From: Candidatus Omnitrophota bacterium
GTDB lineage: Bacteria; Omnitrophota; Omnitrophia; Omnitrophales; JACQQS01
Direction of reading: 5' to 3'
Length of the DNA: 62,639 bases
NCBI GenBank assembly: GCA_016206925.1
Contig: JACQQS010000055.1
Location: 1 to 62,639, forward strand
Positions 7,165 through 55,966 of the stretch are shown here, piece by piece (within the stretch, counting starts at the first letter, position 1; each line of letters begins with the position of its first letter). The translations under genes were made by a program, and so were the position numbers. The notes beneath the pieces were generated by a model. The model searched no databases, was not told the origin of the DNA, and was given only the letters and a program-made list of their open reading frames with translations.

Positions 7165-7706
7165 TTTTGCCCAAGAAATGTTTTCTTACCAAAGGCGCGG
7201 GTGTTCACCGTGAAAAACTATCCAGTTTTGAGCTGGCGCTGAGAGATGCAGGTATCGCGCCGTTCAATATCGTACGTGTCTCGAGTATTTTCCCGCCCCA
7301 TTGTAAAATTATCCCGAAACAGACGGCGCTGAAATATCTTTCAATGGGACAGATTGTCTATGCGGTTGTAAGTGAGTGCGCCACCAACGAACCCAACCGC
7401 TTGATCAGCGCTGCCACGGGCGTCGCGATTCCAAAGAACCCGAGGAATTACGGATATCTCTCGGAGCATCACGCGTACGGGCAGACGGAGAAGGCCGCGG
7501 CGGATTATGCGGAGGATCTGGCTGCGTCCATGCTCGCGACCATCCTCGGTGTGCAGTTTAACCCCGATGACAGCTACGATGCGCGCAAACAGCAATGGGA
7601 AATCTCCAATGAGATCGTTCGATGTACCTCCATTGCCCAGTCGGCGCGCGGACCCAAGAACGGGGATTGGGTCTCGGTCATTGCCTGCGCCGTTTTAATT
7701 GCCTAA
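7161..7706 (+). CDS. pdaD: Pyruvoyl-dependent arginine decarboxylase
   Basis: Start at ATG 7161 (ATGA overlap with the mutM stop). MILPKKCFLTKGAGVHREKLSSFELALRDAGIAPFNIVRVSSIFPP is typical of PdaD proenzymes. Confidence 0.75.
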   Translation: MILPKKCFLTKGAGVHREKLSSFELALRDAGIAPFNIVRVSSIFPPHCKIIPKQTALKYLSMGQIVYAVVSECATNEPNRLISAATGVAIPKNPRNYGYLSEHHAYGQTEKAAADYAEDLAASMLATILGVQFNPDDSYDARKQQWEISNEIVRCTSIAQSARGPKNGDWVSVIACAVLIA

Positions 7707-7877
7707 ATGTAAGCTATTTAACTTGGGGCAGTTCCGAAAATTATATTAAAGATTTTTCTATCGATACACTCCTCGTGAAAAATACCATTCGTAGTCAAAG
7801 GTAGTTATTTTCATAAATTACTTAATATAAATAACTTACATGTATAAAAAAATGCTTGTAAAAATGCTTATTAAGAA

Positions 7878-7906
7878 TTGACAAATGCGAATCCATTGGG
7901 TAACCT
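7878..7906 (+). promoter_or_regulatory. Possible sigma70-type promoter in the AT-rich spacer upstream of the island
   Basis: TTGACA (7878..7883), a 17-nt spacer, then TAACCT (7901..7906). The -10 is weak. Confidence 0.3.
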
Positions 7907-7935
7907 TCAGTAGTCCTAAAATATCGAAGAAGGTT

Positions 7936-7977
7936 ACTGCCTGGGAAGCAGCGTGCTTCTAGGCAGTCGGTGTTTTT
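7936..7977 (+). terminator. Terminator/attenuator-like hairpin followed by a T-run
   Basis: actgcct..gaagca / tgcttc..aggcagt forms an interrupted stem of 7+6 bp, followed by cggtgttttt. A second short hairpin plus T-run lies at 8032..8060 (cttcga gttt tcgaag ttttttcttttt). Confidence 0.35.
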
Positions 7978-8107
7978 GCCCATTCTGAACGAAGTTTAAT
8001 AAGTCGCGCGAATCTGTATTTGCTTCAAACGCTTCGAGTTTTCGAAGTTTTTTCTTTTTCGCAATTATTTTTGACTCTTAAAAAGCATTGAAAGGGGTTG
8101 GGGCAAA

Positions 8108-11100
8108 TTGGACAAAAAGGGAAGTACAAAGGGCTTTTCAATAGTGCATAGAGCTATCGCATGGGTTCTAACTGGGACCATGGCATTGGCGAATCCTGCG
8201 GCCTCAATTGCTTTTCCGATCGCGGGCGGCCCCTTAAGTCCGCCAACACCTGAAACCGAAGTTTCTGCGGATCAGAAGATTCTTGCCGATAAAGTGACGC
8301 CGGTTCCATCTAAAGTTGAATTCGACGCGATCTCAGACGTCATCATTAACGCGGGCAATACGGTTCTGCTTGAGTTAAAAGCCCATTCAAACGCCGGTCA
8401 TGAAGTTTCCTTTACGGCCGCTGATCTTCCGGACGGTGCAGAACTCACCGGGAACAAATTTCAATGGGCCGCCGGTCCCGGTGTGCAGGGGGAATACAAA
8501 CTCATTTTTAAAGCGACCGACGGTTCCGAATCGGCCGAACAGTCGGTAAGCTTTTATTTTGTTCCGACACCCGGATCCTCTTCTTCTAATGCCGCGAGGC
8601 CGATGATCCTTCCCGATCAAAGACCCTCGGACGGAACAGCCGCTAATTCAAAGAATTTCGTTATCGTGATACCCACCGGTTCTTCAGGAACGGGCAGTTC
8701 CGGATCGACATCTCCGCTAAAAGATACGAAGAGCGGTAATTTGAAAGAATCTGGATTTCGCGCGGATGAGGCCGCTACGGGCGGAAATGACGGCAACGTG
8801 GCTTTGGCTCCGGGTACAGAGGCTTACGGATTCGGCGGACCCGGCCTCTTTTTTCCGGATGATTCTAACGATTCAAACAATTCCGGCGGCAATGACAATT
8901 CAAATTCAAGCGACGGTTCCGGTGGCGGTGGCGATAACAGTGGTGACGCCGGCTCTGGTAGCGGCGGAGATGATACAGGGGATGATGATGGAGATGATGA
9001 TATCCTGCCGAATCCTGAACCCACCACGGACACCATAGTTCCGGTCTTTCTTGCTTCCGATCCGGTTTCCGGTTCGGAGGTAAATTCGCTTGCGCAGGTT
9101 CGATTCTTTTTCTTTGACAACATTGACCTCGACGAGAACGCGACAGCGTCGACGCTCAGCGTTACTCAAGACGGCACGCTCTTTCCTAGTTCCAGCTATT
9201 CGAAAAATTCAAGCGCCGCGAATCAAGTTTCGGTATCTATCGCAAACGTTTCAACCGAGCGGCATGTCTATCGTTTTCGTATGACTCCCGTCGATACCGC
9301 CGGAAATAGAGGCACGCAGGCGGACATTACCATTACCGATCTTGCCGATCGTGCCGATGTGCACAACACGTTTCAGGACGTCACGTTTCTAATCCAGCCG
9401 GTGTATGTGTTCGGCCGCGCTGCGGCTTTTGCAGATTACAACAACGACAACTTTGAAGATCTCTATGTCATCAATCCGCATCGACAGGATGCAAACCATT
9501 TTGGTTTGCCGGCGGCGTATGTGGGAGAAAATATGCTCCTGAAACAGCTGGCCGATCGCACGTTCGTAGATGAGGGAAACCCTTTTGACAAAAATGCCTG
9601 GATGCCCGGCCATGTCGGGAGCACACCGAACGCTGCTTCGCAACCGCAAAGCATTGCATTCGGCGATATCGACAATGACGGATTCCGCGATTTCTTTATC
9701 ACGAATAGTTCCGGTCCGAATGTTCTTAAACGGGCGGTACCTGACGAGGACAGAACATTTCTCAAGTTTGAAGATGAAAACGCTCAGCTCGAGGGCGGCA
9801 CCGATATCGGAGACTCACGCGGCGCCATTTTTGCCGATTTTAACGGGGATGGCTACGTGGATATTTACGTAGCGAACGGCGTTAACAACAACGTGCTCTA
9901 CGTAAACCGGCGCGGAGATCCGGGAAATCCTCCAAATCCAAATTCATTTGCAAATATGGCCGCTCAAGCGGGTGTTGAAGCGGCCGGAAAAAATTGCCTG
10001 AGCGCGATTGCCTTTGATGCGGATAACGACGGCGATTCGGATTTGTACCTGCTCTATCTCCACTCACCCAATGAACTTTATGTAAATGACAGCACTACTT
10101 TCACGCCGCATTTTACATTGGCCGCCGGCGTGATGAATCACAGCGGTCATTCCACTGCGGCGCAGGCAGGCGACTTGGATAACGACGGTTTCGCAGATGT
10201 TTTTGTCTGCGATCTGGAGGGCAATTCGAAACTTTACCGCAATACGACGGTTTCCACGAACAATCCAACGTTCCAAGACGTTACCGCCCCGGCGGCCGTC
10301 AACACCGTTTTGGCGGCTACGCAATCTAGGAACCGGCGCGTGAACGGCGCGGCGTTCGTTGATTTTGATAACGACAGCGACTTGGATATCTTTCTCTTGA
10401 GAGCGAACGACCACAATGTTCTTCTCAATAACCCGTTGGATCCGCCACAGGCCGCTTCGGTTGTCTTGGGAAACCGTGCATTTACCGATGCAACGTCATC
10501 GGAGCTGGTTGCGTTTCCCAATTTGAGTGAATCGGCTGCGACGGGCGATTTCAATGACGACGGGAAAAAAGATATTTTTGTCACCGCTTCTCCCAGCGCG
10601 CTTTCCGAAAGCGTCCTTTATCAAAACGTTTCACAGAATCAAAATCACTTTCTTAAAATCAAGCTCCAGCAATCTCCGCTTGCCGGCGATACCGGACCAC
10701 GCGATTCGACGGGCGCTATGGTTATTGTGGAAGCGCGCGGAGAAACCGGGAGCCCGCTTGCCGGTAGTATCGCCCGCCAAACACAGCAAGTTCTCGGAGG
10801 GAATGGGCGAGGGCAGGATTCTTCCGTTCTTCACTTCGGTATCACAAACGCCATTCAGCCGGGCGACATGAGCAGTGCAGAACTGGACATCACCGTTTTC
10901 TGGCCTAACTCGAGTCGCTCTACATTTCTAAGCAGCACGCTCGGGGATTTTGTCATCGATAGCACCGTAACGGTTACGGAGAACACGAACACGCCCAACC
11001 CATTCTTTATTGGAATTACCGAGAGCGGTGTCGATCGCAATGCCGCCATCGATACGGAATTCTTCTTTATTCTTCAGGTTGACGATCCCGATCCGGCGGT

Positions 11101-13279
11101 GGATGAGCAGAGTTTGAGAGTTACCGTATCTGATAACGTGGGTACGTCTATCGGTAATGGCAATCTTACGCAGTTGACCGGTGAACAACTCGGCAAATGG
11201 CTCTTCCGGTTTAATGTAAACCAGCCCGGCTTTTCCGTTGGTCAAGAGATTACACTTGATTTTCGCGTCACCAATCCGGCAACGCGCCGGTTTTCTGATG
11301 CTGCCTTGAGAATACACGTAGTTTCGCAGGCCGGCGCCAATGCCGTTCCGGTTATTGACGGAATTCCGGCGGGTGAGGTTAAGCTTGATTTGGCAGTCAC
11401 GAATTCAGAAATGATCGTTCCGCTCATCGTCACCGATTCCGATTCTATATTGGCTTCCGATCCGCCGCTTGCCTTGAGTGTGAATCTTGCCCTTCAAAAT
11501 GGAAATCTGCGTCCGGGCACGAGCCAGATCGAACTCTTGGGCTCCGGTAGCGTAATACTCTCAAACGACGGCAAGCAGATCATTCAAAGTATCCGCTGGC
11601 AGCCCGACCCGGGCGATCTTGTTTTGGGTCAGGAGGCGACGGGGGCTGTTTACACCGTTTCGGTAACCGTTGATGATTTCGTCGCCGGCGACGCGCGCAC
11701 TCCATTTACAAAAACGTTTAATGTGCGCGTGTCGAACCGCAGCGCCTCGAATCCTGTGCCCACGGCGTTAATTCTCAGCCCTGCGGACAACTCAACCATA
11801 AATACAAGTGACATCCTTGTAACATTCGACACGCCGGACTGGACCGTCGGCGGAAAAGGTGGGACGCACATCCATTTCCATCTTGATAATGTACCGGGTT
11901 ACAGTTTTAACGATCCTTTTATGTTCTACAACGGCAGCGACCGTATCGTGGAGTTCAATCTTGAATCCGGCCAAACCAATCATGCCACTTGGGCAACAAT
12001 CAATTCACTGGTTTTTCATAATGTGCCGGATGGTCTCCATCGGCTAAAAGCTCATCTGGCGGATGAGTTTCACAATGATTTGCAGAATTCCGAAGCCAGC
12101 ATGATCGTGACATTTGATGTGGCGGCGGGGCCGCGCTGGAATGAAAATCAACCTTCCAACGGCACGGCTGTTGTCGGCCGGCCGATAGAAATCAATTTGG
12201 CGGATGCCATTACAAGCCCGGGCCTTCATGCTTTGAATTTTAGTTTGCACGAAGTCAAAGACCCTTCCGGGCAGGATGCTATCAGGTTCCTTGATGGCAA
12301 ATATTCGATCAACGGTAATGGTCTGTTTACGTATACGCCCGGAATAGAGGAAGTGGAAGCCGGTCCGGCGCTGACCTTTTTCTTTGCCGTAGAAGACGGT
12401 ATTAATCCAATTCAAATTTCGGGTGGCACGGTTATCACTATTCAACATGAGCTCGCATGGAATATGCCTCTGCCGCAATCGGCGGACGTCGGCGGGCTTT
12501 ACATTATCCAATTGAATCACGGTGACGAAATCACCTATACGGGATTGACGGCCGATTTGGTTGTCACACTTGAGAGTTCGACGGCCAATGATCCGGACAG
12601 TTATGTTTTCGATCAGAATACGGACACGCTCTTCTACCGTCCCAATCCAAACGATTACGCCGCCAACGTAAGCAGCGGCACGCCGGTAAATTTCAGTTTC
12701 CGCGTCACCGATGGTGTAACGAGTCCGGTAACGGCCGGCGGAACACTGACCATTGCTGCCTTGACCGACATTTCCGGCAAGTACGGCATGGTTTTTGAAA
12801 ACCTGAACGGTTTCACGTTTGATGCCAATCAGGTTTTTGAACATGCCGTCGGCGCAGATCCGTTAAGGCCGGGCATGGAGAAATGGAAACTTGAACTTCA
12901 TTCAGACGGCGCCAGCATTGACAACGGGGCAGGACATAGTCTCGTCGGCTTTGGAGATGTAACGGGAAAGGAACTTGCATTTGACATTCGCGTTGCCGAG
13001 GCGCTCACCGGCGTTCCGATTTTGATCGGACTGAAAGACACCAGTTTAAACGAAGTAAACAACATCAATATTGAAACACATCAGGCTGTCGTGATCGAAG
13101 GCATCGTCACGGGCGATCCGGAAAGTTTGCGCAGCGACAAGTACGTTCGGGTGAGGATTGACACGAGTGCCTTCGCAGGAGTCGACCTTGCGAATTTGGA
13201 GAATTGGACCATTCGTATTCCGGACCAGGGTGCCGGTGCGGTATTTACGCTGTTCCTTGACAACATGCGGTTTGAATGA
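8108..13279 (+). CDS. Giant secreted FG-GAP/VCBS-repeat + ASPIC/UnbV (CRTAC1-like) protein with Ig-like modules and a C-terminal CBM-like domain (P1)
   Basis: 1723 aa. TTG start. Signal-peptide-like N-terminus. Ca-binding blade motifs GDIDNDGFRD, ADFNGDGYVD, FDADNDGDSD, GDLDNDGFAD, VDFDNDSDLD and GDFNDDGKKD. ASPIC-like NHFLKIKL...VLGGNGRGQDSSVLHFGI. D/G/S/N-rich linker. Ends LFLDNMRFE. Confidence 0.75.
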   Translation: MDKKGSTKGFSIVHRAIAWVLTGTMALANPAASIAFPIAGGPLSPPTPETEVSADQKILADKVTPVPSKVEFDAISDVIINAGNTVLLELKAHSNAGHEVSFTAADLPDGAELTGNKFQWAAGPGVQGEYKLIFKATDGSESAEQSVSFYFVPTPGSSSSNAARPMILPDQRPSDGTAANSKNFVIVIPTGSSGTGSSGSTSPLKDTKSGNLKESGFRADEAATGGNDGNVALAPGTEAYGFGGPGLFFPDDSNDSNNSGGNDNSNSSDGSGGGGDNSGDAGSGSGGDDTGDDDGDDDILPNPEPTTDTIVPVFLASDPVSGSEVNSLAQVRFFFFDNIDLDENATASTLSVTQDGTLFPSSSYSKNSSAANQVSVSIANVSTERHVYRFRMTPVDTAGNRGTQADITITDLADRADVHNTFQDVTFLIQPVYVFGRAAAFADYNNDNFEDLYVINPHRQDANHFGLPAAYVGENMLLKQLADRTFVDEGNPFDKNAWMPGHVGSTPNAASQPQSIAFGDIDNDGFRDFFITNSSGPNVLKRAVPDEDRTFLKFEDENAQLEGGTDIGDSRGAIFADFNGDGYVDIYVANGVNNNVLYVNRRGDPGNPPNPNSFANMAAQAGVEAAGKNCLSAIAFDADNDGDSDLYLLYLHSPNELYVNDSTTFTPHFTLAAGVMNHSGHSTAAQAGDLDNDGFADVFVCDLEGNSKLYRNTTVSTNNPTFQDVTAPAAVNTVLAATQSRNRRVNGAAFVDFDNDSDLDIFLLRANDHNVLLNNPLDPPQAASVVLGNRAFTDATSSELVAFPNLSESAATGDFNDDGKKDIFVTASPSALSESVLYQNVSQNQNHFLKIKLQQSPLAGDTGPRDSTGAMVIVEARGETGSPLAGSIARQTQQVLGGNGRGQDSSVLHFGITNAIQPGDMSSAELDITVFWPNSSRSTFLSSTLGDFVIDSTVTVTENTNTPNPFFIGITESGVDRNAAIDTEFFFILQVDDPDPAVDEQSLRVTVSDNVGTSIGNGNLTQLTGEQLGKWLFRFNVNQPGFSVGQEITLDFRVTNPATRRFSDAALRIHVVSQAGANAVPVIDGIPAGEVKLDLAVTNSEMIVPLIVTDSDSILASDPPLALSVNLALQNGNLRPGTSQIELLGSGSVILSNDGKQIIQSIRWQPDPGDLVLGQEATGAVYTVSVTVDDFVAGDARTPFTKTFNVRVSNRSASNPVPTALILSPADNSTINTSDILVTFDTPDWTVGGKGGTHIHFHLDNVPGYSFNDPFMFYNGSDRIVEFNLESGQTNHATWATINSLVFHNVPDGLHRLKAHLADEFHNDLQNSEASMIVTFDVAAGPRWNENQPSNGTAVVGRPIEINLADAITSPGLHALNFSLHEVKDPSGQDAIRFLDGKYSINGNGLFTYTPGIEEVEAGPALTFFFAVEDGINPIQISGGTVITIQHELAWNMPLPQSADVGGLYIIQLNHGDEITYTGLTADLVVTLESSTANDPDSYVFDQNTDTLFYRPNPNDYAANVSSGTPVNFSFRVTDGVTSPVTAGGTLTIAALTDISGKYGMVFENLNGFTFDANQVFEHAVGADPLRPGMEKWKLELHSDGASIDNGAGHSLVGFGDVTGKELAFDIRVAEALTGVPILIGLKDTSLNEVNNINIETHQAVVIEGIVTGDPESLRSDKYVRVRIDTSAFAGVDLANLENWTIRIPDQGAGAVFTLFLDNMRFE

Positions 13280-13706
13280 CGTGTCGCTTCGCCGCGCCGA
13301 CCGCGCGGTGCCGCTGGTCCAAGCGCCCGACCGGCGCTCGATCAAGCGGCGGAATTAGGCGAGCGGCGAATGAGGGCTGACGGTGACAGAAGGCTTTTGC
13401 CCTTTTCTGCCTTTCGTGTCCTGTTAGAGTCCTTTGTTTCGAAAGAAATTGAGGATTAAACGCTCCCCCGCGCAATGCGGGTCCCCTCGTCGCCGTTTGC
13501 TTAATTCCGAAGCGATTTGCTCGCTGCAGTGAAAAAAATACGCAGTGGCAAAATCTGCTGATTATTTGTGTCTGCAAATACATTTGGCAGAAAAGAATTA
13601 AGTCAGCTTATAAAGTATTTAGTACTATTTATCGGACTGCATTGACTTAGCCGAAGCCGTGTAGTACCTTATAAAACGTAGCGCGAAACTGGAGATTTTA
13701 AAATCG

Positions 13707-13755
13707 CTTGAGCTTGGCTGAAAGCTAAGCTCAAGATTTCTTTTTCTTCTTTGTT
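13707..13755 (+). terminator. Rho-independent terminator-like hairpin + T-tract
   Basis: cttgagcttggc (13707..13718) pairs with gctaagctcaag (13724..13735), 12 bp with one G.U, followed by tttctttttcttctttgtttc. Confidence 0.5.
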
Positions 13756-13898
13756 TCGGATTATTAAATCTTTCTTAATAGCTGAATCAGGATGATAAGG
13801 CATGGGATTTTGTAATCGTTTGTAATCGCTGGAAAATAAGATAATTGAAGTTGGAAACGACTTCAAAATTGTTAGAAAGTAAATGGGAGGTAATGAAC

Positions 13899-14852
13899 AT
13901 GCTAAAACGAATGATTGCAGTAACGCTTGCGAGCGGTTTGGTTTTCTTGAACATTCCGCTTGCATTTGCAGCAACATCACTAGAAGTGTTTTCTATTCCT
14001 TTAACAGGCGGAGGCGTTTTGGAGCTGTCTGGTACGAACGACATTGATGTCACGCTTGTTGACAATGAAGAGTCAGGAATCGCTGATGGACAGATGGAGT
14101 TTCCTGTTACGGGTACCAATTTTGTACCTGAAGGCGACGAACTCCTGCGGGTGAGGTTTAAAGCAAATAACAACAATCTAGGCGTGGAAAACTTTAAGTC
14201 TGTTTTGATTTACACGGACAACAAGAGTGCGACTGCGAATCCAAGGGCGAGTACAGATAATCACTTTCCTGCGGGTCTAGTGAGAAGTGATGCCGATGCC
14301 ACACTCGACGGTGATGTTAGCACGCCGCTTCACTGGGTTGTGTTTCCTACGTCAGCGGAGGCAAAGGCGTATAACTTTTTGCCTTATCGACACGGTGTGG
14401 ATCCTTTTCCTGTCAAACGTGATAAGAGCGAGAGTATCGACTCGCGGATTCAGGCTTTTGTGAGCGATAAATCAGGGAATTTGAAAGTTGATGGTAGCCC
14501 TGACTTACAGGATTGCGATGCTGATCCTAATACTCCATCCACCGTATTTTGCCAGAATTTCGCGACGGTCATCTCCGGCCTTACAGGTGTGACCGCCGGA
14601 TTGGCTAATGTTCCGAAAGCTGACAACTGCGCAGAATCCGATCCCAGACTTTGCGGAAATAGCGATGATCCAAACACACCTGCGGTAGAGACGTTTCCGG
14701 CAAGATTGATTACATCGGATATTTCAGCCGATGACCTTGAAGGCGATGGTTTCGGAGAAGCTTATATCTTGCTGGCCGCAAATTTTAACGGAAAGCCTGC
14801 AGGAACTTATACAACCAACAAACTCACAATCGAATTGGTTCAGGGAGTTTAA
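13899..14852 (+). CDS. Small secreted protein S1, homologous to the C-terminal domain of giant protein P2
   Basis: Start chosen at ATG 13899 (gggagg 8 nt upstream). Signal peptide MLKRMIAVTLASGLVFLNIPLAFA. Mature N-terminus ATSLEVFSI. The tail AYILLAANFNGKPAGTYTTNKLTIELVQGV parallels the P2 tail. Confidence 0.6.
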   Translation: MLKRMIAVTLASGLVFLNIPLAFAATSLEVFSIPLTGGGVLELSGTNDIDVTLVDNEESGIADGQMEFPVTGTNFVPEGDELLRVRFKANNNNLGVENFKSVLIYTDNKSATANPRASTDNHFPAGLVRSDADATLDGDVSTPLHWVVFPTSAEAKAYNFLPYRHGVDPFPVKRDKSESIDSRIQAFVSDKSGNLKVDGSPDLQDCDADPNTPSTVFCQNFATVISGLTGVTAGLANVPKADNCAESDPRLCGNSDDPNTPAVETFPARLITSDISADDLEGDGFGEAYILLAANFNGKPAGTYTTNKLTIELVQGV

Positions 14853-14915
14853 AAACCGAATCTTACAATTCGGTGCTTGTTGGCACGGCAGGGAATTGCT
14901 GTAATCATTCGTGAA

Positions 14916-14970
14916 CGGGTTGTCCGTGCATGTTGCTGATGGACAACCCGCCTCCTTTTGTGGAGGTTTT
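14916..14970 (+). terminator. Tandem hairpins ending in a T-run (terminator after S1)
   Basis: cgggttgtcc / ggacaacccg forms a perfect 10-bp stem (14916..14950). It is followed by cctcc ttttgt ggagg tttt (14951..14970). Confidence 0.55.
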
Positions 14971-15250
14971 GGTTGCAGCCGAATGCAGTTCGAGCGACGG
15001 ATATCATTATTATTTGGCTGATTTAGATTTCAGGAACTGCTGGAGATTAAAGGATCGCGGGGCTCTTGTTCTTAAAGCATATCCTCCCTCGTAAGAGCCT
15101 TCATTAAGCTAAGTAACCAAATGTTTCATGTAATACAATGACATGAGAAGAAAGCTTATTCCTATGGCGATTTAATCTCCAAGTAATAATAGGGACCAGG
15201 GAAATCCACGTGGAGAAGTTTATCGTCAAAGGCGAAGGGATGGGGCTTAC

Positions 15251-18200
15251 TTGAAGCCAAGACAATACGGCAGAAACACATGGGCACATAGCGCGTTAAC
15301 CGTTTTGTTGGTGACCAATCTTTCTTTTTGGCCACCCGCGTTGGTGGAAGCTTTTTCCATCGGGCCATTTCGATTTGGTGCTTCTGAACCATCCGCTCAG
15401 AAAGAAGCTTTCGATTTTTCCAATCCTCCTGAGAGTGTAACCTCTCATCTTAAATTTAAACCTGTTTCGGACGCTTTAATTAGCTCTGGAAATCTGGTCG
15501 AATTCAAGCTCCAGGCAATTTCTCCTGCCGCGAACCCAGTGCATTTTGAAATTGAAGAACTGCCGGACGGCGCATTTTTGATCGACGGCCAGTTTCGCTG
15601 GCAGCCTCCGGGTGATTGGGTGGGTGAGAAGAAGCTAACTTTTCGTGCGACAGATGGTGTTGAGACCGTTGAACAGGTTATAACACTTTTTTTTCTCCCT
15701 CCTTCGAAGTTTCCTGCAGAGCAAGCTTGGCCGGGCGAAGATGACACGCGGCAAGGTGGCAGACGTTCCGCACTGGTTCTCCCAGATGAGAAAGGTTGGA
15801 TTGTTGTTATTCCGTCGTCAACGCAAAAGGTGGTTTCCAAGAAAGCAACTGAGCGTCTCGACCAGCATGGTGAGCAAGGCGAAGGTGAATTTCGTCTGGG
15901 CGAAGAGAGCGATCTCAGCACGAGCGGTCAGGGAGCCAGTGGGGATGATCTGATTGTGGTTTACGACCCGTTTTTTTCGAGGCCTATTCTTGGTGGAACT
16001 ACACCAAAGAATGCGACCCCTGCGGATGGGAAAACGGGCGGAACCGGCGGGCCGGACGGTACGGGAGATGAAGGGGAAGGAGATGAAGAACCTCAGCCGT
16101 CGAATCCTGGTGAGGAACAAGATTTTAATCTGGGCATACGGTTTTTCGACCATACCGGTGGTAGAAACGGTTTGGTGCCATCGTTCAATCCGGTTACGCA
16201 TCACACATTTCAAAGCGTGAATATTTTTGCGGGAGTCGGAAATGTTTTTGGCCGTGCCGCCGCTTTCGGAGATCTTCAAGGCCATAACGATGCCGATTCC
16301 TCGAGAAACCTCCAAGATATTTATGTGGCCAATCCCTATCGTCAAATTGATTTGAGCGGCTTTAGCCCGCCGCCAGCAGCTAGAAATACCTTTTTGGTTA
16401 ATAATGCAGAATCTGTCGGCGAGATTACGTTTCGAGACCGCACGATTGCTCTGAATGCCGAAATGAACCAGCCGCCCTCCGAATTGGACCGTCCCCAAGC
16501 CGTTCTTTTCGGTGATTTGGACGGTGATGGCTTGAGAGATGTTTTCATCCCCAACCTCGGGCGGCCGAACATCCTATTGAAGAGTCAAGGGGCGAACTTG
16601 CCATTTCTGGATATCTCCAGCGCATCGGCCGTGAATGAATCAAGCGAAGCGCGAGCAGCGGTTCTGGCCGATTTTAATTTAGACGGCGCCCTCGACGTTT
16701 ATGTGGCAAACGGTTCGAGTCCGAGCCGGCTTTACATGAATCTTGGAAACGGAACATTTTTTGACGCGGCCGGATTGCTCGGCCTTCAAGGTACAGGCCG
16801 CAGCGTGGGCGTGGTTGCATTCGATGCGGATAACGACGGCGACTCTGAAATTTATCTCTTGAACTTTTCAGGTTCGAACCATCTCTACAAAAATTTGTTG
16901 CAAGAAACGGCTGTCTTGAGTTTTACCGAAGTGGGCGGTTCAGCGGGCCTGGCCTTGGCAGGGGCGCCTTCCGGCGCGGAAATCGGCGATCTTGATAACG
17001 ATGGCGACTATGATTTATTTATCTCAGATCTTGCCGCAGGAGGCGCAAGGCTTCTTCGAAATGATTCGTCGGCGGGGAATATTCTCTTCACGGACCAGAC
17101 CTCCAAACTGAACTCAGCATTAGGTGGCGCCTCCCTTCCGGCGACAACCGGTTGTGCGTTTCTCGATATTGATAACCAGGGATTGCTGGATGTTTACGCC
17201 ATCACAGAGAACGATGAAAACATTATGCTCGGCAACCAAGGTGGCTTTAATTTTTCCGACATTACAGCAGCGGAGGTTGTGGCATTTCCGCTTTTTGCCG
17301 ACAGCGTTGCGACAGGAGATTACAACCATGACCATAGAACCGACATTTTTATTTCTTCTACGCCGTCGCTTCTCTACAAAAACATTTCCTCGCATAGCAA
17401 CCATTATCTCGAGGTTGTTTTAAAGCCCACGTCTGTTGAGACCAATGCGGATGGTATCGGTGCCCGTGTGGAGGTAACGCGTTCGGACAGTATAAAACTC
17501 ACGCAACAAGTTATCGGAGGAACAGGCCGTTCGCAAGATTCGACCACGCTTCTTTTTGGGATGGGTAATAACACGCGCGCGGAAAGCATCAAAGTTTTTT
17601 GGCCCGATGCGCTGGGAAGGTCCACGGTTCTTATGGACAGCGATCCGGAAGTTGATCTTCACGCGGACCAAACGCTTGTAATAACCGGCAATGCCGCGCC
17701 GGAAATCATGGTGCTCTCGGACCATTTCGAAGCGCCGGCCGGAATGGCTTCATCGTTTGAACTTGCCACAAAGGATGTTAACGGAAATCCCGTCGCACTT
17801 ACCTTTGCGGTGCTCGGTGGCCCGCTCAATTCGAGCAATGCCTCCGTTCATAAGATTGTGAGCGACGGAATAAACACAACGTGGCGATTTACGTTTACGC
17901 CGCATGAAGCTGGGGAAGTCATTCTGCGATTCTTTGCCGACGATGGACTGGCGCCGGCGTCCGGGACGAAAGATATTACCGTTACCGTACTGAGCCAGGC
18001 TGTTTTTAACCATCCGCCTTTCTTTGCCGATCCTTTGCCAGAAAGTGTTTCCGTTCTGGCAGGCAAGGTGATGAATGAAATCGAAATCCTTGCGCGCGAC
18101 TCGGACAATATTTCCGCGGGCATTCTGAATGCTTTGGTCACTGTGAATCCAGCTCTTCCGGTGGGTACACGACCAGCCCTTCTGGATTTAAACAATCCCG

Positions 18201-20899
18201 CTGTTACCGTTTCGAGTGAGGGAAAGAGCCGCGCCATGGCGCTCAAATGGACGCCCACAACTGACTTGTCCGGATCGTTTGAAGTGACTGTGACCTTGGA
18301 TGACGGAATCGCAAGCGCGGAGGATACGTTCACCATTTTGGTGGAAGCGCTTCCGCCTTCGGAAGATCACGAGCCGCCGGCTTTTGTTTCATCAATTCCG
18401 GCCGACAGCTCAACGGTTCTCGAGTTGAACACTGTCGAGTTTATCCTCTCTGATAATGTCGGCGTTGACGAGGTGGGAACAGGGATCGCAGCTACGCGCG
18501 ACGGCGCTTCGCTTTCCGAAGGAGCCGCCAACGATTTTACAAGAGATCATTCAGTTGAAAATCGTATTTTGCTTACGCTCAACTTTCCAAGTGAAGGCGT
18601 GTATGTATTCTCCGTAACTTCGAAAGACACATCCGGCAATTTAGGTATTCCCGTTGCAGTCACGATTACCGATGCTCCGGATGCGCCAACGCTTTTCCAA
18701 GACCGCGCACTTGGACAGGAGGGCTATTTCGGCTCGGGTCCTCATCTGGTTCCTCCCGAGGCGCAAATTGCTTTGGTGGGCGATTATAACGGTGATACCA
18801 ACGGAGCGACCTCGCGCGGCGGGTCTTCCAATGCGCTTGAAGATTTACTGATCTTATCCGGCATTTCTTCGCCCACAAAACTTTTCCAGTTGAATTCCCT
18901 GAACGGACCGTATGAAGATGCAAGTCAGACGGCCGGCATTACGTCCAATTTGAGTTCGACAGGTGCCGTGTTTTTTGATCTGAACGGCGATGGTTTTCGG
19001 GATATTTACTCGGTTCAAAATGGCCCGAATCAGCTATTCATTTCAAATGGCGACGGAACCTTTGGAACGGACATAGCATCACTTGCGGGATCTGCTGACA
19101 ATGGGAATGGGCGGGGAGCACTTGTAGGCGATCTGGATGAGAACGGCCTTCTCGACCTTTATCTTTTGAACAACGGCCGGAATGTGCTCTACCTGAATCG
19201 TTCAACGGGGCCAGCAATAACTTTTGTCAACGCGTCAGAAGGTGTTAACGACACAGAGACGTCAGGATCTGAAACGGCAGATTCGGTTGCCGGGCTTGTT
19301 TTTGATCCAGACGATGACGGAGATTGGGATATTTTTGTGGTGAATGCCAACGAATCTAATCGTCTCTTTCTGAATCCTGGAGTTCCGCTCGGGGGCAGTA
19401 ATCCGCTCGGTGCTTTTGCTGAATTTGCCGGTCCGTTAGGGCTGGCAGATGATGCGAGCGGCAAGACTGCATTGGCGGCAACCGATGTAAATGGAGACCG
19501 GTCCGTTGATTTACTTGTTCTGAATTCAGATCCGGCCGAATGTAAACTCTTGATTCAAGACTTAGACAACCGAGTGTCTGTCAATGGTGTGGAGATCGGC
19601 AAGTTTAAATCGTCTTCCGCAGGCCTTGATTTTGCGGCACATTTTTCAATTTCCGCTCCCGCGGTGCGTGATGCGGTGTTTATGGATTTTGATAATGACG
19701 GCGATCAGGATCTTGCCGTTGCTGCTCTAGGCACGGGCAATGAGTCTGAGATACTACTCTACCAAAATAACGGGCGGGCCGAATTTTCTTTGCGTTCCGA
19801 CACCGGATTTTCCGTTCGGAATATGCAGGTTCGTTCGCTTACGTCCGTTGACATTAATCAAGATGGCCGCATTGATCTCATTGCAGTTGGGAATTCTACC
19901 AAAGTGTTTATAAATCAAGTTTCCAACGACAATGCCTATCTGCAAGTCGCTTTGGAGGGTGTTGTGAGCAACCGGCACGGCCTCGGCAGCGCTGTTTTGG
20001 TAAAACCAGAAACGATAACAGAAGCATTCTCGCATTTGCTTTTAGCAGGCACGGGCCGGGGACAAAACAGCGGCATTGTGCACTTTGGCCTCGGCAATCT
20101 CGGCTTGCTTCCCGGAACGATTGAGCATGTGGTGGTTTCCTGGCCGCGCGGCATCGTAACGTTTATTGACGCGGGCGGTTCTCTGGGGCCGTTTTTTTCT
20201 AATCAGCGCATGCCTGTTTCCGAGTTGGGCTTTTCGGAAGTCTTCATGAATGTCTCTCTTGTACACAATCCGGATTATCAGGCTCCAGATCTGAATTCCG
20301 ACATAATCTTTCAATTGGTTGATATTGCAGTAAATGTCGAGGGAGTGATTCTGGAACAAAATGGAGTTGAAAACGGCATCGTTCCATTTCGACAGTATCT
20401 TTTAGTCGATTTTTCTCTTCCTCCCGCCGATAATCTGTTTGCTTCAATCGTTGCTTCTACAGATAACCGAAACGGGGAGCCGGCCTACACAGGAGCCGAT
20501 CGTGAGAAAGCGGCTGGTCTTGTTGGAGAAACGGACGGATCGTTTACCGTGCCTCTATTGTGGAAGGTTTATAATGACAGCAGTATTCCAGGCGTTGTCG
20601 AGCCGGGGCGTTTTATCGGTGATGCGTTTGTAACCGAAGGACTGATACAGGACAAAGCACAATCTGCTTACAATAATCTTGATGCGCAGGTTCTGCGCGA
20701 GTTAGTTACCAATCTGAATGGAGGAACGCTGGGCTTGTTTCCGACGGAGAATATTGCTACCCGAGTACTGGATCCAGTCGGCAAGATCCGAGTTTATTTA
20801 GCGGCCGATTTTTCGTCGCCGCCGAATGGTTCGACATGGCCTCCGCAGAAATATAAAACTTCGAGGCTTACACTTGAATTGACGGTGGACGGTGTATAG
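15251..20899 (+). CDS. Giant secreted protein P2 with two FG-GAP/VCBS + ASPIC/UnbV propeller modules and Ig-like modules (paralog of P1)
   Basis: 1882 aa. TTG start. N-terminal module parallel to P1. Blade motifs GDLDGDGLRD, ADFNLDGALD, FDADNDGDSE and GDLDNDGDYD in module 1; FDLNGDGFRD, GDLDENGLLD, FDPDDDGDWD and MDFDNDGDQD in module 2. Two ASPIC-like segments (NHYLEVVLK...VIGGTGRSQDS and NAYLQVALE...LLAGTGRGQNS). Confidence 0.75.
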   Translation: MKPRQYGRNTWAHSALTVLLVTNLSFWPPALVEAFSIGPFRFGASEPSAQKEAFDFSNPPESVTSHLKFKPVSDALISSGNLVEFKLQAISPAANPVHFEIEELPDGAFLIDGQFRWQPPGDWVGEKKLTFRATDGVETVEQVITLFFLPPSKFPAEQAWPGEDDTRQGGRRSALVLPDEKGWIVVIPSSTQKVVSKKATERLDQHGEQGEGEFRLGEESDLSTSGQGASGDDLIVVYDPFFSRPILGGTTPKNATPADGKTGGTGGPDGTGDEGEGDEEPQPSNPGEEQDFNLGIRFFDHTGGRNGLVPSFNPVTHHTFQSVNIFAGVGNVFGRAAAFGDLQGHNDADSSRNLQDIYVANPYRQIDLSGFSPPPAARNTFLVNNAESVGEITFRDRTIALNAEMNQPPSELDRPQAVLFGDLDGDGLRDVFIPNLGRPNILLKSQGANLPFLDISSASAVNESSEARAAVLADFNLDGALDVYVANGSSPSRLYMNLGNGTFFDAAGLLGLQGTGRSVGVVAFDADNDGDSEIYLLNFSGSNHLYKNLLQETAVLSFTEVGGSAGLALAGAPSGAEIGDLDNDGDYDLFISDLAAGGARLLRNDSSAGNILFTDQTSKLNSALGGASLPATTGCAFLDIDNQGLLDVYAITENDENIMLGNQGGFNFSDITAAEVVAFPLFADSVATGDYNHDHRTDIFISSTPSLLYKNISSHSNHYLEVVLKPTSVETNADGIGARVEVTRSDSIKLTQQVIGGTGRSQDSTTLLFGMGNNTRAESIKVFWPDALGRSTVLMDSDPEVDLHADQTLVITGNAAPEIMVLSDHFEAPAGMASSFELATKDVNGNPVALTFAVLGGPLNSSNASVHKIVSDGINTTWRFTFTPHEAGEVILRFFADDGLAPASGTKDITVTVLSQAVFNHPPFFADPLPESVSVLAGKVMNEIEILARDSDNISAGILNALVTVNPALPVGTRPALLDLNNPAVTVSSEGKSRAMALKWTPTTDLSGSFEVTVTLDDGIASAEDTFTILVEALPPSEDHEPPAFVSSIPADSSTVLELNTVEFILSDNVGVDEVGTGIAATRDGASLSEGAANDFTRDHSVENRILLTLNFPSEGVYVFSVTSKDTSGNLGIPVAVTITDAPDAPTLFQDRALGQEGYFGSGPHLVPPEAQIALVGDYNGDTNGATSRGGSSNALEDLLILSGISSPTKLFQLNSLNGPYEDASQTAGITSNLSSTGAVFFDLNGDGFRDIYSVQNGPNQLFISNGDGTFGTDIASLAGSADNGNGRGALVGDLDENGLLDLYLLNNGRNVLYLNRSTGPAITFVNASEGVNDTETSGSETADSVAGLVFDPDDDGDWDIFVVNANESNRLFLNPGVPLGGSNPLGAFAEFAGPLGLADDASGKTALAATDVNGDRSVDLLVLNSDPAECKLLIQDLDNRVSVNGVEIGKFKSSSAGLDFAAHFSISAPAVRDAVFMDFDNDGDQDLAVAALGTGNESEILLYQNNGRAEFSLRSDTGFSVRNMQVRSLTSVDINQDGRIDLIAVGNSTKVFINQVSNDNAYLQVALEGVVSNRHGLGSAVLVKPETITEAFSHLLLAGTGRGQNSGIVHFGLGNLGLLPGTIEHVVVSWPRGIVTFIDAGGSLGPFFSNQRMPVSELGFSEVFMNVSLVHNPDYQAPDLNSDIIFQLVDIAVNVEGVILEQNGVENGIVPFRQYLLVDFSLPPADNLFASIVASTDNRNGEPAYTGADREKAAGLVGETDGSFTVPLLWKVYNDSSIPGVVEPGRFIGDAFVTEGLIQDKAQSAYNNLDAQVLRELVTNLNGGTLGLFPTENIATRVLDPVGKIRVYLAADFSSPPNGSTWPPQKYKTSRLTLELTVDGV

Positions 20900-20910
20900 A
20901 AAGGAAAGCT

Positions 20911-21735
20911 GTGGCAAGAAATTTTAGACCGTTTATTTTTGCAGTCTTCACACTTTGCTTGAATCTGGTTCCGGGAATTCTCGAAGCATCGGGTGTATCC
21001 TTCGGTCCGGGCATCACGGAACTCTTGCTCCGGCCGGGTGAAAAAGGCGCAACGGTATTTCATGTCCTCAACGAAACCGATCAGGATATGAGAATAAACG
21101 TTGAAGCGGTAAATTGGCTAGTCCGTCATCTCCAGCGCGAAGGCCGGATCGATGATGTTTACGAATGGATGGATTTGGGGAATTATCGAGAGTTTACGGT
21201 GCCGAAACATAGCCGTGGCAAGCTTTCGGTGGATGTGAAAGCGCCGGATAGTTTTGAAGGCGAGCGGATTGCACAGGTCTTTTTTCAATATTCTCCCGTT
21301 GAGGCGACCACAGAACAAGCAGCGGCTGAAAAACAGGTCAGTTCACGGATCGGACTGCTTGTCTGTCTGGGTGCTAAAGGCAAAGAGAAACTTTACGCTG
21401 ATCTGGCATTGGATGCGGTGAAAGCAGCCGCTCTTGAAGATGGAAAGGCGGATGTCTCTTTTTCGTACACCATTAAAAATCTGGGGAATATTCACATATC
21501 TCCCCGTGGGTTCGTGAGGATAAAAAAGGGAAAGGATACGCTGTCAGAGATGGAAATCGGGGTTGTTCAAGGGCTTTATACAAATGAAAAACGTGCATAC
21601 CGAACCGTGCTCAAAGCAGTGTCGCTTCCTTCCGGTGAGTATGACGCTGAAGTAGATATCAAAATGATCAGTTACGGGATGGAAAAGCGGATGCAAAAGA
21701 CTCAAAAAATCCCGATAAGTGAGGTCGCCGAATGA
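20911..21735 (+). CDS. Secreted two-domain (Ig-like) protein; candidate PapD-like periplasmic chaperone
   Basis: 274 aa. GTG start with aaaggaaag upstream. Signal peptide. The mature start GVSFGPGITELLLRPGEKGATVFHVLNETDQDMRINVEAVNW resembles chaperone N-termini such as GVALGATRVIYPAGQKQ..L.VTNNDE...LIQSW. The stop overlaps the S2 start (ATGA). Confidence 0.3.
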   Translation: MARNFRPFIFAVFTLCLNLVPGILEASGVSFGPGITELLLRPGEKGATVFHVLNETDQDMRINVEAVNWLVRHLQREGRIDDVYEWMDLGNYREFTVPKHSRGKLSVDVKAPDSFEGERIAQVFFQYSPVEATTEQAAAEKQVSSRIGLLVCLGAKGKEKLYADLALDAVKAAALEDGKADVSFSYTIKNLGNIHISPRGFVRIKKGKDTLSEMEIGVVQGLYTNEKRAYRTVLKAVSLPSGEYDAEVDIKMISYGMEKRMQKTQKIPISEVAE

Positions 21736-22361
21736 AATTTCAATGGTTTAAATTTTTCGCTGTTTTAGGACTGGTTTTTATCTGCCTGACTGCGGGTACT
21801 TTCTCTTTGCAAAATGCTTACGCATCTACTTCGCTTGAGATATTCGAAATCTCAGCAAGTACCGCAAGCGGCACTCCGTTTACCATGTTTGAGGGAAATA
21901 CGCCGTTCTGGGGTGATTGGAGCGGTGATCCGGGTACAGACGTTTCGAGGATTTCGGAGCCGAGTTCCATAAATGGAGATGGCGGCGCCTGGCGCATGAC
22001 ATTGGTTGATACTGCTAATGGTTCACGGCGGTTTGCTCTGGCGGGATGGGCTTTGAATCATCTGAATGTCGTTGGGAAAACACATTTGGACCTCTACGCC
22101 CGTGGCGGCTCGGGCGGCGAAACATTTGAGGTAGGGTTAAGCGACAGCGCAGTACCAAAACACGAGATTCGTCGTAATGTCGCCCCATTCATTGTCGGCG
22201 GAGGCTTGATTACCACTGCTTACAAACAAATTCGCATTCCCCTGACAGAATTTTCGAATGGTGGCGTGGTCTTAAGTAATTTGGATGCTTTCCTCGTCAT
22301 CTCAACCGCGCCCGACGGTCAGACCAACGTTCTCTATCTCGACGCCATGAGATTTGAGTAG
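21732..22361 (+). CDS. Small secreted protein S2, homologous to the C-terminal CBM-like domain of giant protein P1
   Basis: 209 aa. Signal peptide ending NAYA. Mature N-terminus STSLEIFEI. The tail YKQIRIPLTEF...NVLYLDAMRFE parallels the P1 tail YVRVRIDTSAF...FTLFLDNMRFE. Confidence 0.6.
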   Translation: MKFQWFKFFAVLGLVFICLTAGTFSLQNAYASTSLEIFEISASTASGTPFTMFEGNTPFWGDWSGDPGTDVSRISEPSSINGDGGAWRMTLVDTANGSRRFALAGWALNHLNVVGKTHLDLYARGGSGGETFEVGLSDSAVPKHEIRRNVAPFIVGGGLITTAYKQIRIPLTEFSNGGVVLSNLDAFLVISTAPDGQTNVLYLDAMRFE

Positions 22362-22384
22362 GCCGTTTTTATCGATTAGCTGGA

Positions 22385-23242
22385 TTAAAATTCTTCTACT
22401 TTGGCGCCCGGCGGGGGAGTGAAATTGAAAAGTTCGTCGTCGAGGGCAATGTTGATTTTGGTGTCGAAGAACGTAATGACCGCGGATTTTTGTTCAAGCG
22501 GGCGTTCGATCGTCAGGAATTTCGCAAGTCTCCACCCGCGCAATTCATAAAAGCCGCCTCTTTCAATCTGGAGATAACGGATATTTTCACGTGTGAAGTG
22601 CTCTTCGCGCGTAACATCCAGCGCTCCGGCATCCATCCATAACGAGCGCAATCTCCACTCCATTTCGCCTTCTTTCGTATAATCGTTGATCAGGTACATA
22701 CCGTCTTGTTTTGTCTTCTCATGGCTATCGATATTTCCAAGCGGCTGAACAATCAAGGCGGTGAGTATGTCGAATCCGTTTATCTCAAGATCAATATGGG
22801 TGGGACGCATCAGCTTTTCTTTGTTGCCGGTAACGACAATGTTGTCTCTCGGAATATGCAGCCAGAAACGCTTGCCGCGTACTACGAGAAGAAAAACTTT
22901 CGGAATGTATTTGCTCAAGCCGCGGATGTAGAGCCGGTCCGGATATTTATAGGCCAGAACGGCATTGCTTGCGACAGCCGATTCGTCGATGTCGGCGAAT
23001 CGTATATTGATGTCGCTTTGAAGCGTTTGAATTCTGGCATGTTGAAAATCGAAATAGGCGCGGAGATGGTCCAGCGAAAATCCTTGTGGTGTAAACTCGT
23101 GAGGAGCAGGCGGTGCTTTCGGCGTCTTTGGTTCGGATGCGCAGGAGGCGTTTAGGGTACAGATTAAGAGAAGCGCACCAAGACAGAAGCCGAATGTGTT
23201 GAAGAACCCGGTTCGCGTGCTAATCGTAGTATTCAACACCAA
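22385..23242 (-). CDS. Putative lipoprotein (LolA/DUF4292-like); function unknown
   Basis: 285 aa. Hydrophobic N-terminus with a lipobox-like LNASC. The fold assignment is only a guess. Confidence 0.4.
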   Translation of the reverse strand: MVLNTTISTRTGFFNTFGFCLGALLLICTLNASCASEPKTPKAPPAPHEFTPQGFSLDHLRAYFDFQHARIQTLQSDINIRFADIDESAVASNAVLAYKYPDRLYIRGLSKYIPKVFLLVVRGKRFWLHIPRDNIVVTGNKEKLMRPTHIDLEINGFDILTALIVQPLGNIDSHEKTKQDGMYLINDYTKEGEMEWRLRSLWMDAGALDVTREEHFTRENIRYLQIERGGFYELRGWRLAKFLTIERPLEQKSAVITFFDTKINIALDDELFNFTPPPGAKVEEF

Positions 23243-54627: not shown

Positions 54628-54663
54628 TCCATGGCGATTGGGTTAACTCCCAGTCGCCATGGA
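54628..54663 (+). promoter_or_regulatory. Long hairpin between flp and the assembly genes (processing/attenuation candidate)
   Basis: tccatggcga (54628..54637) pairs with tcgccatgga (54654..54663), a perfect 10 bp, with a further tggg/ccca inside. No T-run follows. Confidence 0.4.
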
Positions 54664-54775
54664 GCTGGTCTTTCGGTATCACAGAGGAGATTACAGACTT
54701 AGATCGATCGGATTCGCGGGAAACGGATTTGTAAAATATAGCTTCCGCGGGCAAAGAGGGGTGGAAGAAATTTTT

Positions 54776-55450
54776 ATGTTTCCGGTTAATATCAAAGATT
54801 TATTGGGAAGTAAAATGAATTCAAAAGATGAAGATTCCTCTTTTTTAGAATTTATTTTTTCGAGTCGAAAGAAACAATTTTCAAAAGGTTTACCAAGCAT
54901 AAGAGGATCAGCACTGGCTGAATTTGCCCTTGCGCTTCCGGTGCTCGTTGTGTTTGTGACGCTGACTCATCAAGTTTGGAATACGATCGAAGTACATAAA
55001 GCGCTGGATGACACTGCTCGTGAAGCGGCACGATTTGCCAGTCTCCAGATTCCTCCTATGGCCACAATAACGCCGGCTGTTCAACAGTATGTTGCTAATA
55101 CGCTCGTACCCAACTCGAAATTAAAAGCATACGATCCCTCCAAGATCACTGTGGGTGTTGAGCGCTTAGGCAGCACCCCTGGAACTCCGGAAGACACCGT
55201 TCCGAAGGGCACCGTCAATCCGGGAGATGTTTTGAGGGTATCTGTTGGTTTGGCGGCAAACCAGCCCGGTGGATTCTATTCATATCTATTCCCCAGTGCG
55301 TCTTCGATCGTGCGCAGTGCTTCGTATGTCCAAGCCAATCCGGTGACAGGCGTTCCTGAACCTACACCTACGCCTTCTGGCCCGGGTTGCTGTGCTACGG
55401 ATGAATTTGGAAATTGTATCGAATTGTGTTGTGAGCCGCCGGATTGTTAA
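54776..55450 (+). CDS. TadE-like pseudopilin with Cys-rich C-terminal tail
   Basis: TadE N-terminal segment RGSALAEFALALPVLVVFV. Start uncertain (54776 or 54815). Ends CCATDEFGNCIELCCEPPDC. Confidence 0.7.
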   Translation: MFPVNIKDLLGSKMNSKDEDSSFLEFIFSSRKKQFSKGLPSIRGSALAEFALALPVLVVFVTLTHQVWNTIEVHKALDDTAREAARFASLQIPPMATITPAVQQYVANTLVPNSKLKAYDPSKITVGVERLGSTPGTPEDTVPKGTVNPGDVLRVSVGLAANQPGGFYSYLFPSASSIVRSASYVQANPVTGVPEPTPTPSGPGCCATDEFGNCIELCCEPPDC

Positions 55451-55497
55451 CAAATAAGTGTTCTACGATTGGTTTTTACAAAGCTGAGGTTATTCGA

Positions 55498-55950: not shown

Positions 55951-55966
55951 GCGGGAGAACGGAAAA

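What the first reader, a model, noticed from the sequence alone, without database searches (positions are those of the whole stretch)
13899..14852. S1 is a stand-alone homolog of the C-terminal domain of the other giant protein (P2), with an added Cys/DPNTP insert
The S1 tail EAYILLAANFNGKPAGTYTTNKLTIELVQGV aligns with the P2 tail RVYLAADFSSPPNGSTWPPQKYKTSRLTLELTVDGV. Both are the extreme C-terminus and both end in GV. Upstream, S1 STPLHWVVFPTS parallels P2 FTVPLLWKVYNDSS. The P2 region concerned is roughly nt 20228..20896. S1 additionally carries a segment with four Cys and a duplicated DPNTP motif (CDADPNTPSTVFC ... CGNSDDPNTPAVE) that is absent from P2. S1 is encoded after P1 rather than after P2, so the pairing is crosswise.
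Basis: seen in the sequence. Interest (0 to 1): 0.6.

Follow-up and report, generated by a model that had tools for sequence, protein, structure and literature searches.

The report
Usher-less strand-swapping pilus subunit, Omnitrophota
This small secreted protein is most likely the repeating building block of an undescribed surface fibre of an uncultured bacterium, and it resembles the end of the neighbouring giant protein because that end is probably the socket that fixes the giant to the fibre's tip.

Summary
The homology is real. A profile built only from small S1-like proteins hits just S1 and P2's C-terminus in this genome (E 4e-23), and both predicted structures return the same donor-strand pilin folds (weak Z, 5-7). 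S1 is more than a free copy: it has an N-terminal donor-type strand that P2's domain lacks. It opens a conserved four-gene unit: S1 (shaft), P2 (tip), 20911-21735 (soluble chaperone; best PDB hit a WxL-interacting protein) and 21732-22361 (donor-type strand on a CBM30-like domain; candidate terminator). The fourth gene's strand co-varies with its own locus's S1 strand, while its C-terminal module swaps (CBM, CFI-box-CTERM, CHU_C). The domain was found in 22 of 401 Omnitrophota genomes; none showed an usher or the ~950-aa partner of the sister system this scan noted earlier on other DNA. The layout parallels the recently solved Gram-positive WxL pilus, reported as confined to Bacillota. The 'insert' is two Cys-paired surface loops; the DPNTP repeat is private to S1. 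'Crosswise' is a misreading. Polymerisation, polarity and export route (T2SS?) are inferred, not shown.

The parts
13899..14852 (+). S1: predicted shaft pilin (signal peptide 1-24, N-terminal extension, pilin-like beta-sandwich with three loop inserts)
13971..14024 (+). S1 N-terminal extension (residues ~25-42), predicted donor strand
   Evidence: unpaired and low pLDDT in the monomer model; family pattern hydrophobic-x-A(84%)-x-G/V/A-x-L/V/F; aligns to the donor strands of TLP-1b, Caf1 and TasA
14472..14552 (+). S1 loop insert 1 with C206/C218 and the first DPNTP
   Evidence: pLDDT about 58-60
14619..14693 (+). S1 loop insert 2 with C244/C252 and the second DPNTP
   Evidence: pLDDT under 50 at model residues 232-241
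15251..20899 (+). P2: predicted tip subunit; FG-GAP repeats, ASPIC/UnbV and Ig-like domains, ending in the pilin-like domain
20306..20896 (+). P2 C-terminal S1-type domain without a canonical donor strand (predicted acceptor)
20911..21735 (+). CH: predicted soluble pilus chaperone, WxLIP/PapD-like, no C-terminal membrane helix
   Evidence: profile hit to EfmWxLIP1 E 4.9e-4; sub-threshold PF06030 in 7/20 and PF11797 in 2/20; highest 19-residue hydropathy 0.85
21732..22361 (+). S2: donor-type N-terminal strand (from nt 21825) on a CBM30-like domain; predicted terminating subunit
   Evidence: CBM30 E 1.1e-5, under the curated cut-off; strand score in the 98.9th percentile of genome ORFs; joint best match to its own S1
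8108..13279 (+). P1: paralogue of P2 (FG-GAP giant) ending in an S2-like CBM domain instead of the pilin domain; not part of the conserved core
   Evidence: (S2 vs P1 C-terminus Z 6.4)

Best explanation
S1 is the polymerising subunit of a chaperone-assisted, donor-strand-exchange surface fibre. Shown here: S1 and the end of P2 are one domain family; it is predicted to be a pilin-like beta-sandwich; S1-type genes carry a conserved N-terminal strand that P2-type domains lack; a WxLIP/PapD-like gene and a fourth gene with the same strand but (in most loci) no pilin domain accompany them. [quoted passage not shown] No usher was found, so the outer membrane is probably crossed another way, with T2SS the leading guess. 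The Cys pairs are probably disulfides that staple surface loops.
For: Family homology. Both models give TLP-1b as top fold match (S1 Z 6.9, rmsd 7.4, 175 aligned; P2 domain Z 6.3, rmsd 4.2, 146 aligned), followed mostly by donor-strand pilins; S1 aligns from residue 1 of TLP-1b and Caf1, the P2 domain only from residue 14-15, i.e. without the donor strand. A donor-strand matrix from 74 outside family members scores shafts 11.4, fourth genes 9.25, chaperones 0.37 and tips -0.06; the linker before the tip domain scores -2.1 versus 10.3 in shafts. Fourth-gene strands match their own locus's shaft better than others (20.3 vs 7.1; with nine separate lineages 21.6 vs 6.5, permutation p 1e-4). The family pattern parallels the WxL donor consensus at positions 10, 12 and 14 (10.64898/2026.10.17.759780). 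The chaperone's best PDB hit is EfmWxLIP1, and the 21 best chaperone scores among 401 genomes all fall in genomes with the S1-type domain. Fourth genes end in interchangeable modules, some of them known or presumed sorting signals: CFI-box-CTERM, CHU_C/FlgD-Ig; or they are pilins with an extra C-terminal strand that scores as a donor in four of eight cases.
Against: All fold scores are below Z 8, which the tool says can reflect only a common arrangement; Foldseek gave nothing at E <= 0.001. The chaperone hit is weak and below Pfam cut-offs. In the P2-domain model a linker strand (residues ~1665-1672, pLDDT about 53) aligns with the self-complementing strand of FimA monomers, so this groove may be closed from within. 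S1's own strand fits the family matrix only moderately (8.2). Cleavage sites for the co-variation test were placed by eye, and the loci are related. CBM-like domains also occur as payload in tips of other loci, so an anchor role for S2 is not established. No expression or imaging data.
Confidence: 0.72

Rival explanations
1. Same strand-exchange chemistry, but a short stoichiometric chain (P2-S1-S2) rather than a long pilus: S1 is an adaptor that tethers the giant.
For: One S1 gene per locus here; all sequence evidence shows compatibility of strands and grooves, not fibre length. A static platform was the older model for WxL clusters.
Against: S1 has both donor and acceptor, so nothing visible limits self-polymerisation; it sits apart from P2 (398-nt spacer) while CH and S2 are tightly coupled, as expected for a separately and more highly expressed major subunit (inference); the equivalent ElrD forms fibres hundreds of nm long.
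Confidence: 0.1
2. Reversed polarity: P2 is held at the cell and the fibre grows outward, ending in S2 as a distal carbohydrate-binding cap.
For: S2 has no membrane helix or known sorting signal; CBM-like domains are tip payloads in other loci; without an usher the direction of growth is not fixed.
Against: In other loci the same gene slot carries CFI-box-CTERM or CHU_C-type C-termini, which fits a base; P2 has no membrane helix either; in Elr and Pam models the donor-only subunit is the base.
Confidence: 0.09
3. The P2 domain is closed by its own linker strand and is a non-polymerising relic or export module; S1 forms a tipless, TasA-like fibre or works alone.
For: The model places P2 ~1665-1672 where FimA self-complements; this strand is conserved in L001, L003 and L070.
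Against: Low confidence (pLDDT about 53); the strand scores -1.2 on the donor matrix; most other tips run straight from payload into the domain with no spare strand; tip and shaft genes stay linked across classes.
Confidence: 0.06
4. One reading: S1 and S2 are free-standing duplicates of the two giants' C-terminal domains, paired crosswise (decoys or shed modules).
For: Both similarities are real.
Against: S1-type small genes are a family of their own, often two or three per locus; most loci have no P1; S1 and S2 share a strand that neither giant has; the chaperone would be unexplained.
Confidence: 0.03

Closest known systems
WxL/Elr pilus of Enterococcus faecalis (ElrA tip, ElrC/D pilins, ElrE DUF916-DUF3324 chaperone, ElrB terminator; bioRxiv 10.64898/2026.10.17.759780)
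   Same: Four roles with the same logic: large protein ending in the pilin domain without donor strand, small pilin with N-terminal donor strand, chaperone (best PDB hit a WxLIP), donor-only fourth subunit with a separate C-terminal module; no usher; similar donor pattern.
   Different: Omnitrophota host (the paper finds the system confined to Bacillota); no PF13731 match; larger domain with long loops; chaperone has no C-terminal membrane helix; fourth subunit has no LPxTG/membrane tail but a CBM30-like, CFI-box-CTERM or CHU_C module.
Chaperone-usher pili (CFA/I CfaB/CfaE, Csu, Ecp, Caf1, Fim/Pap)
   Same: Predicted pilin-like fold (Z 5-6), soluble chaperone with signal peptide, tip protein with C-terminal pilin domain, subunits ending at the last strand.
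   Different: No PF00577 usher in 401 genomes searched; no sequence similarity to these pilins; a donor-only fourth subunit with its own module.
TLP-1a/b orphan fibrils from pond water (PMC11494351; 9IKJ, 9IKK)
   Same: Top structural match for both models; about 237 residues, N-terminal donor strand, sandwich with extensive loops; source organism unknown.
   Different: Z only 6.3-6.9, identity 7-10%; profiles A2 and A4 do not find it by sequence.
Pam pili of CPR bacteria (PMC13278184)
   Same: Usher-less, chaperone-assisted donor-strand assembly with a proposed donor-bearing terminator (PamR).
   Different: Pam chaperones are membrane-anchored, PamA/B have two domains with an internal linker strand, the host has no outer membrane; no Pam NCBIfam model matches A2 or A3.
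Usher-like sister cassette of Omnitrophota
   Same: Same chaperone family.
   Different: Has a ~950-aa TPR/SdrD_B partner, not found at full length in any of the 22 S1-type genomes; its pilins show no core similarity to the S1 domain (probability 0.2%); no donor-only fourth gene was recognised there.

Membership tests
WxL pilus system | Subunits match WxL (PF13731) | tested here: not met
   0 of 95 members match at E <= 0.1. Leads only: Atlas feature score 0.84 and TM 0.38/0.50 to a WxL-named cluster.
WxL pilus system | Chaperone with paired PF06030 and PF11797 | tested here: inconclusive
   Weak matches in 7/20 and 2/20 members, none for the window protein; profile to EfmWxLIP1 E 4.9e-4.
WxL pilus system | Chaperone has a C-terminal membrane helix (96.7% of WxL chaperones) | tested here: not met
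   Highest 19-residue hydropathy 0.85 for CH, 0.4-1.7 across 20 homologues.
WxL pilus system | N-terminal donor strand with small residue at P10 and alternating hydrophobics | tested here: met
   Family columns: A 84%, then G/V/A, then L/V/F; position 8 is hydrophobic rather than S/T.
WxL pilus system | Tip protein with the pilin domain last and no donor strand | tested here: met
WxL pilus system | Terminator with LPxTG, membrane helix and sortase anchoring | tested here: not met
   S2 ends in a CBM30-like domain with no hydrophobic tail; sortase was not searched for.
Chaperone-usher pili | Outer-membrane usher (PF00577) | tested here: not met
   Not found in this genome (86% complete) or in 401 genomes searched; control rings in E. 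coli. A very divergent pore cannot be excluded.
Chaperone-usher pili | PapD-family chaperone (PF00345) | tested here: inconclusive
   1 of 20 members at E 0.034; CH was not folded.
Chaperone-usher pili | Incomplete Ig-like pilin fold | tested here: inconclusive
   Many pilins at Z 4-6 for both models; below the level at which a match is secure.
Any donor-strand pilus | Subunits polymerise by strand exchange | not testable with these tools
   Needs expression and EM.
TLP-1 fibril family | Same protomer fold | tested here: inconclusive
   Top hit for both models, Z 6.3-6.9; no sequence match at E <= 10.
Pam pili (CPR) | Membrane-anchored chaperones and match to Pam family models | tested here: not met
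Omnitrophota usher-like sister cassette | Adjacent ~950-aa TPR/SdrD_B partner | tested here: not met
   Full-length matches in the sister genomes, only TPR or SdrD fragments or nothing in the 22 S1-type genomes, several of them 95-100% complete.

The most novel reading that the evidence does not exclude
A donor-strand pilus of a two-membrane bacterium that is built with a soluble WxLIP-like chaperone and no usher of any kind, leaves through the type II secretion system, and is ended and tethered by a dedicated donor-strand subunit with an exchangeable anchor; it would carry the WxL assembly logic outside Bacillota, and its subunits could be relatives of the orphan TLP-1 fibrils.
Probability: 0.3. 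Interest if true: 0.85.

Novelty: new variant of a known kind. Interest (0 to 1): 0.68.

Why it matters
The one paper that resolves WxL pili reports them confined to Bacillota, and usher-less chaperone pili are otherwise described from cells without an outer membrane (Bacillota, CPR). A version in Omnitrophota raises a testable question: how does a strand-exchange fibre cross an outer membrane without an usher? It also gives a concrete display mechanism for large Omnitrophota surface proteins: FG-GAP, glycoamylase and CBM payloads all end in the same pilin socket. S1 plus CH is a two-gene system that can be tested in E. coli, and the family is a candidate home for fibres seen in environmental cryo-EM.

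Tried and rejected
Complex prediction of the P2 domain with S1: no answer (score 0.00); not used as evidence either way. Pfam and NCBIfam give no family for S1 or its relatives. Profiles A2 and A4 find no solved relative by sequence. Foldseek found nothing at E <= 0.001. No WxL or Pam chain appeared in the fold lists, which does not exclude them. Rfam found nothing in 7500-23500, so no c-di-GMP riboswitch as noted for the sister cassette. Promoter and terminator counts do not exceed shuffles. The comparison A2 vs A5 (99%) was discarded because A5 mixed S1-type with sister-type pilins; the clean test is. Literature searches for 'donor-strand' with 'Omnitrophota' and for 'CFI-box' returned no paper; the 2026 Omnitrophota genome preprint does not mention WxL, usher or chaperone. 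Rejected: significance of the terminal GV and of the DPNTP repeat.

Full report
Observation. Pairwise similarity is borderline: BLASTP E 0.004, shuffle Z 4.4 against the last 227 residues of P2 and 2.2 against all of it. Family evidence is strong. An alignment of seven first hits found 196 relatives at E <= 0.001. A profile of 95 small relatives with no giant in it hits two places in this genome, S1 and the P2 C-terminus (E 3.7e-23), and the profile-profile match is 100%. The shared core is a YTDN-type motif, AGLV, a PLxWxV motif, a conserved Asp and the final two strands.

The insert. It is three loops, not one segment. Two carry a Cys pair and one DPNTP each; the third is acidic. All are low-confidence in the model. 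The Cys pairs are kept in the closest relatives, so disulfides are likely (inference). DPNTP is found in 1 of 95 members and a repeated 5-mer of any kind arises in 4.8% of shuffles; I give it no weight.

Host and spread. A genome of the same order is Ca. Omnitrophus fodinae (contig of 25,203 nt), so this is Omnitrophota. The domain was found in 22 of 401 genomes of the phylum. The nearest Atlas clusters are mostly Elusimicrobiota where the phylum is known, a lead for a wider range that I did not confirm.

The conserved unit. Reading some 25 loci gives four recurring roles. (a) One to three small S1-like genes. (b) A larger protein with the domain, nearly always at the very C-terminus, behind a variable payload: FG-GAP/ASPIC here, glycoamylase in L005/L006, CBM-like domains in others. 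(c) A ~270-aa gene like 20911-21735. (d) A fourth secreted gene. The window has them in the order S1-P2-CH-S2. P1 was seen only here and in L001 and L003, so S1 belongs with the gene after it and the arrangement is not crosswise.

Fold. S1 folded at pLDDT 81.6 with its first ~20 mature residues unpaired; the P2 domain at 81.1. Both return TLP-1b first (Z 6.9 and 6.3) and then mostly strand-exchange pilins: CsuE, CfaB/CfaE, EcpA, Caf1, TasA. S1 aligns from residue 1 of TLP-1b and Caf1; the P2 domain starts at residue 14-15, after their donor strands. These Z values are below 8 and do not prove homology; the agreement of the two lists and the missing strand are what count. TLP-1 is a donor-strand fibril of unknown origin (PMC11494351).

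Chaperone. The CH profile's best PDB hit is EfmWxLIP1 (E 4.9e-4), with weak matches to both WxLIP Pfam domains. CH has no membrane tail, unlike 96.7% of WxL chaperones. The 21 highest CH scores among 401 genomes all lie in genomes with the S1-type domain.

Donor strand and the fourth gene. A matrix from 74 family members outside the tested loci shows alternating hydrophobic positions around an Ala (84%), close to the WxL donor consensus. It scores shafts 11.4, fourth genes 9.25, chaperones 0.37 and tips -0.06; S2 is in the 98.9th percentile of this genome's ORFs. Fourth-gene strands resemble their own locus's shaft more than others: 20.3 versus 7.1, top or joint top in 9 of 15 loci, p 1e-4 with nine lineages (cleavage sites set by eye, loci related). 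Behind this strand sits a CBM30-like domain (window and others), a long protein ending in CFI-box-CTERM, one ending in CHU_C/FlgD-Ig, or a pilin domain with an extra C-terminal strand that may plug its own groove. This matches the build of ElrB, donor strand plus anchor and no acceptor.

Mechanism. By analogy with the Elr pilus (10.64898/2026.10.17.759780), CH primes each subunit, P2 forms the tip, S1 repeats, and S2 ends the fibre. Domain content, gene linkage and strand patterns are shown; groove insertion, polymer length, polarity and anchoring are inferred. P1 ends in an S2-like CBM domain (Z 6.4; weak with a P1-free profile, E 0.003), so it may be the same kind of payload held without a stalk; that is speculation.

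Export. No PF00577 usher was found in 401 genomes. About 129 further genomes hold more distant CH relatives; in eight such loci that I read, CH lies beside a ~950-aa TPR/SdrD_B protein and a different pilin family. Earlier notes of this scan describe that cassette as usher-like; I did not test that. It has no full-length match in any of the 22 S1-type genomes. T2SS genes directly follow the unit in L005, L006, L039 and L043 (three of these genomes are one family), lie 3.5 kb away in L041, and a GspC-like PDZ gene follows it in L088. In this genome the T2SS genes are on other contigs. T2SS export is therefore a lead, not a result; a paper notes that secretion genes flank most Omnitrophota giants anyway.

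Weak points. Fold and chaperone scores are modest. The P2 model fills its groove with a low-confidence linker strand. CBM-like domains are payloads elsewhere, so S2 could be a distal cap. The genome is 86% complete. Nothing shows expression.

Verdict. It works most probably like a WxL or chaperone-usher pilus but fails membership of both: no WxL match, no membrane-bound chaperone, no LPxTG, no usher. I found no paper describing it. New variant of a known kind; confidence 0.72 in the pilus reading; interest 0.68.

Noticed in passing
L077, L078, L080-L082, L084, L091, L092 (e.g. L084:7011-13498): Sister cassette: distant CH homologue with ~200-260-aa pilin-like genes, a ~470-aa protein and a ~950-aa TPR/T2SS-T3SS_pil_N/SdrD_B protein. 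CH-family genes are in 150 of 401 genomes.
   Followed up: partly
L005:10001-10732, L006:10001-10723, L039:9099-9866, L043:14346-15065: Pilins in the fourth-gene slot with an extra C-terminal strand that may self-complement the groove, a possible natural terminator.
   Followed up: partly
L044:6610-7899, L045:4140-6938, L047:8663-9955, L069:784-1980, L088:7161-9710: A class with the S1-type domain at the N-terminus, little or no donor strand, and CBM-like domains after it.
   Followed up: partly
L053:1451-3418: A 656-aa protein with two S1-type domains in tandem.
   Followed up: no
L075:4349-12880: Intermediate locus with three pilin-like genes, two chaperones and a 1146-aa tip; only weak matches to the S1 profile.
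   Followed up: no
L073:12738-13691: TraF_2-like gene right after a CHU_C-ended fourth gene; possibly a PorV-like partner (from memory, untested).
   Followed up: no
window 22385-23242: LolA-like lipoprotein gene converging on S2; a similar gene follows the unit in L001, L003, L040, L041 and L046. May be plain synteny.
   Followed up: no
window 54659-62638: Tad pilus cluster (two TadE, RcpC/CpaB, secretin, CpaE-like ATPase); the genome has seven secretin matches.
   Followed up: partly
window 13707-13735: 13-bp hairpin with a T-rich tail in the P1-S1 spacer, about 160 nt upstream of the S1 start; no Rfam match.
   Followed up: no
L044, L045, L047, L088: In these loci the unit sits among genes that look like glycoside phosphorylases and stand-alone CBM-like proteins (by eye), suggesting a glucan-harvesting context.
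   Followed up: no
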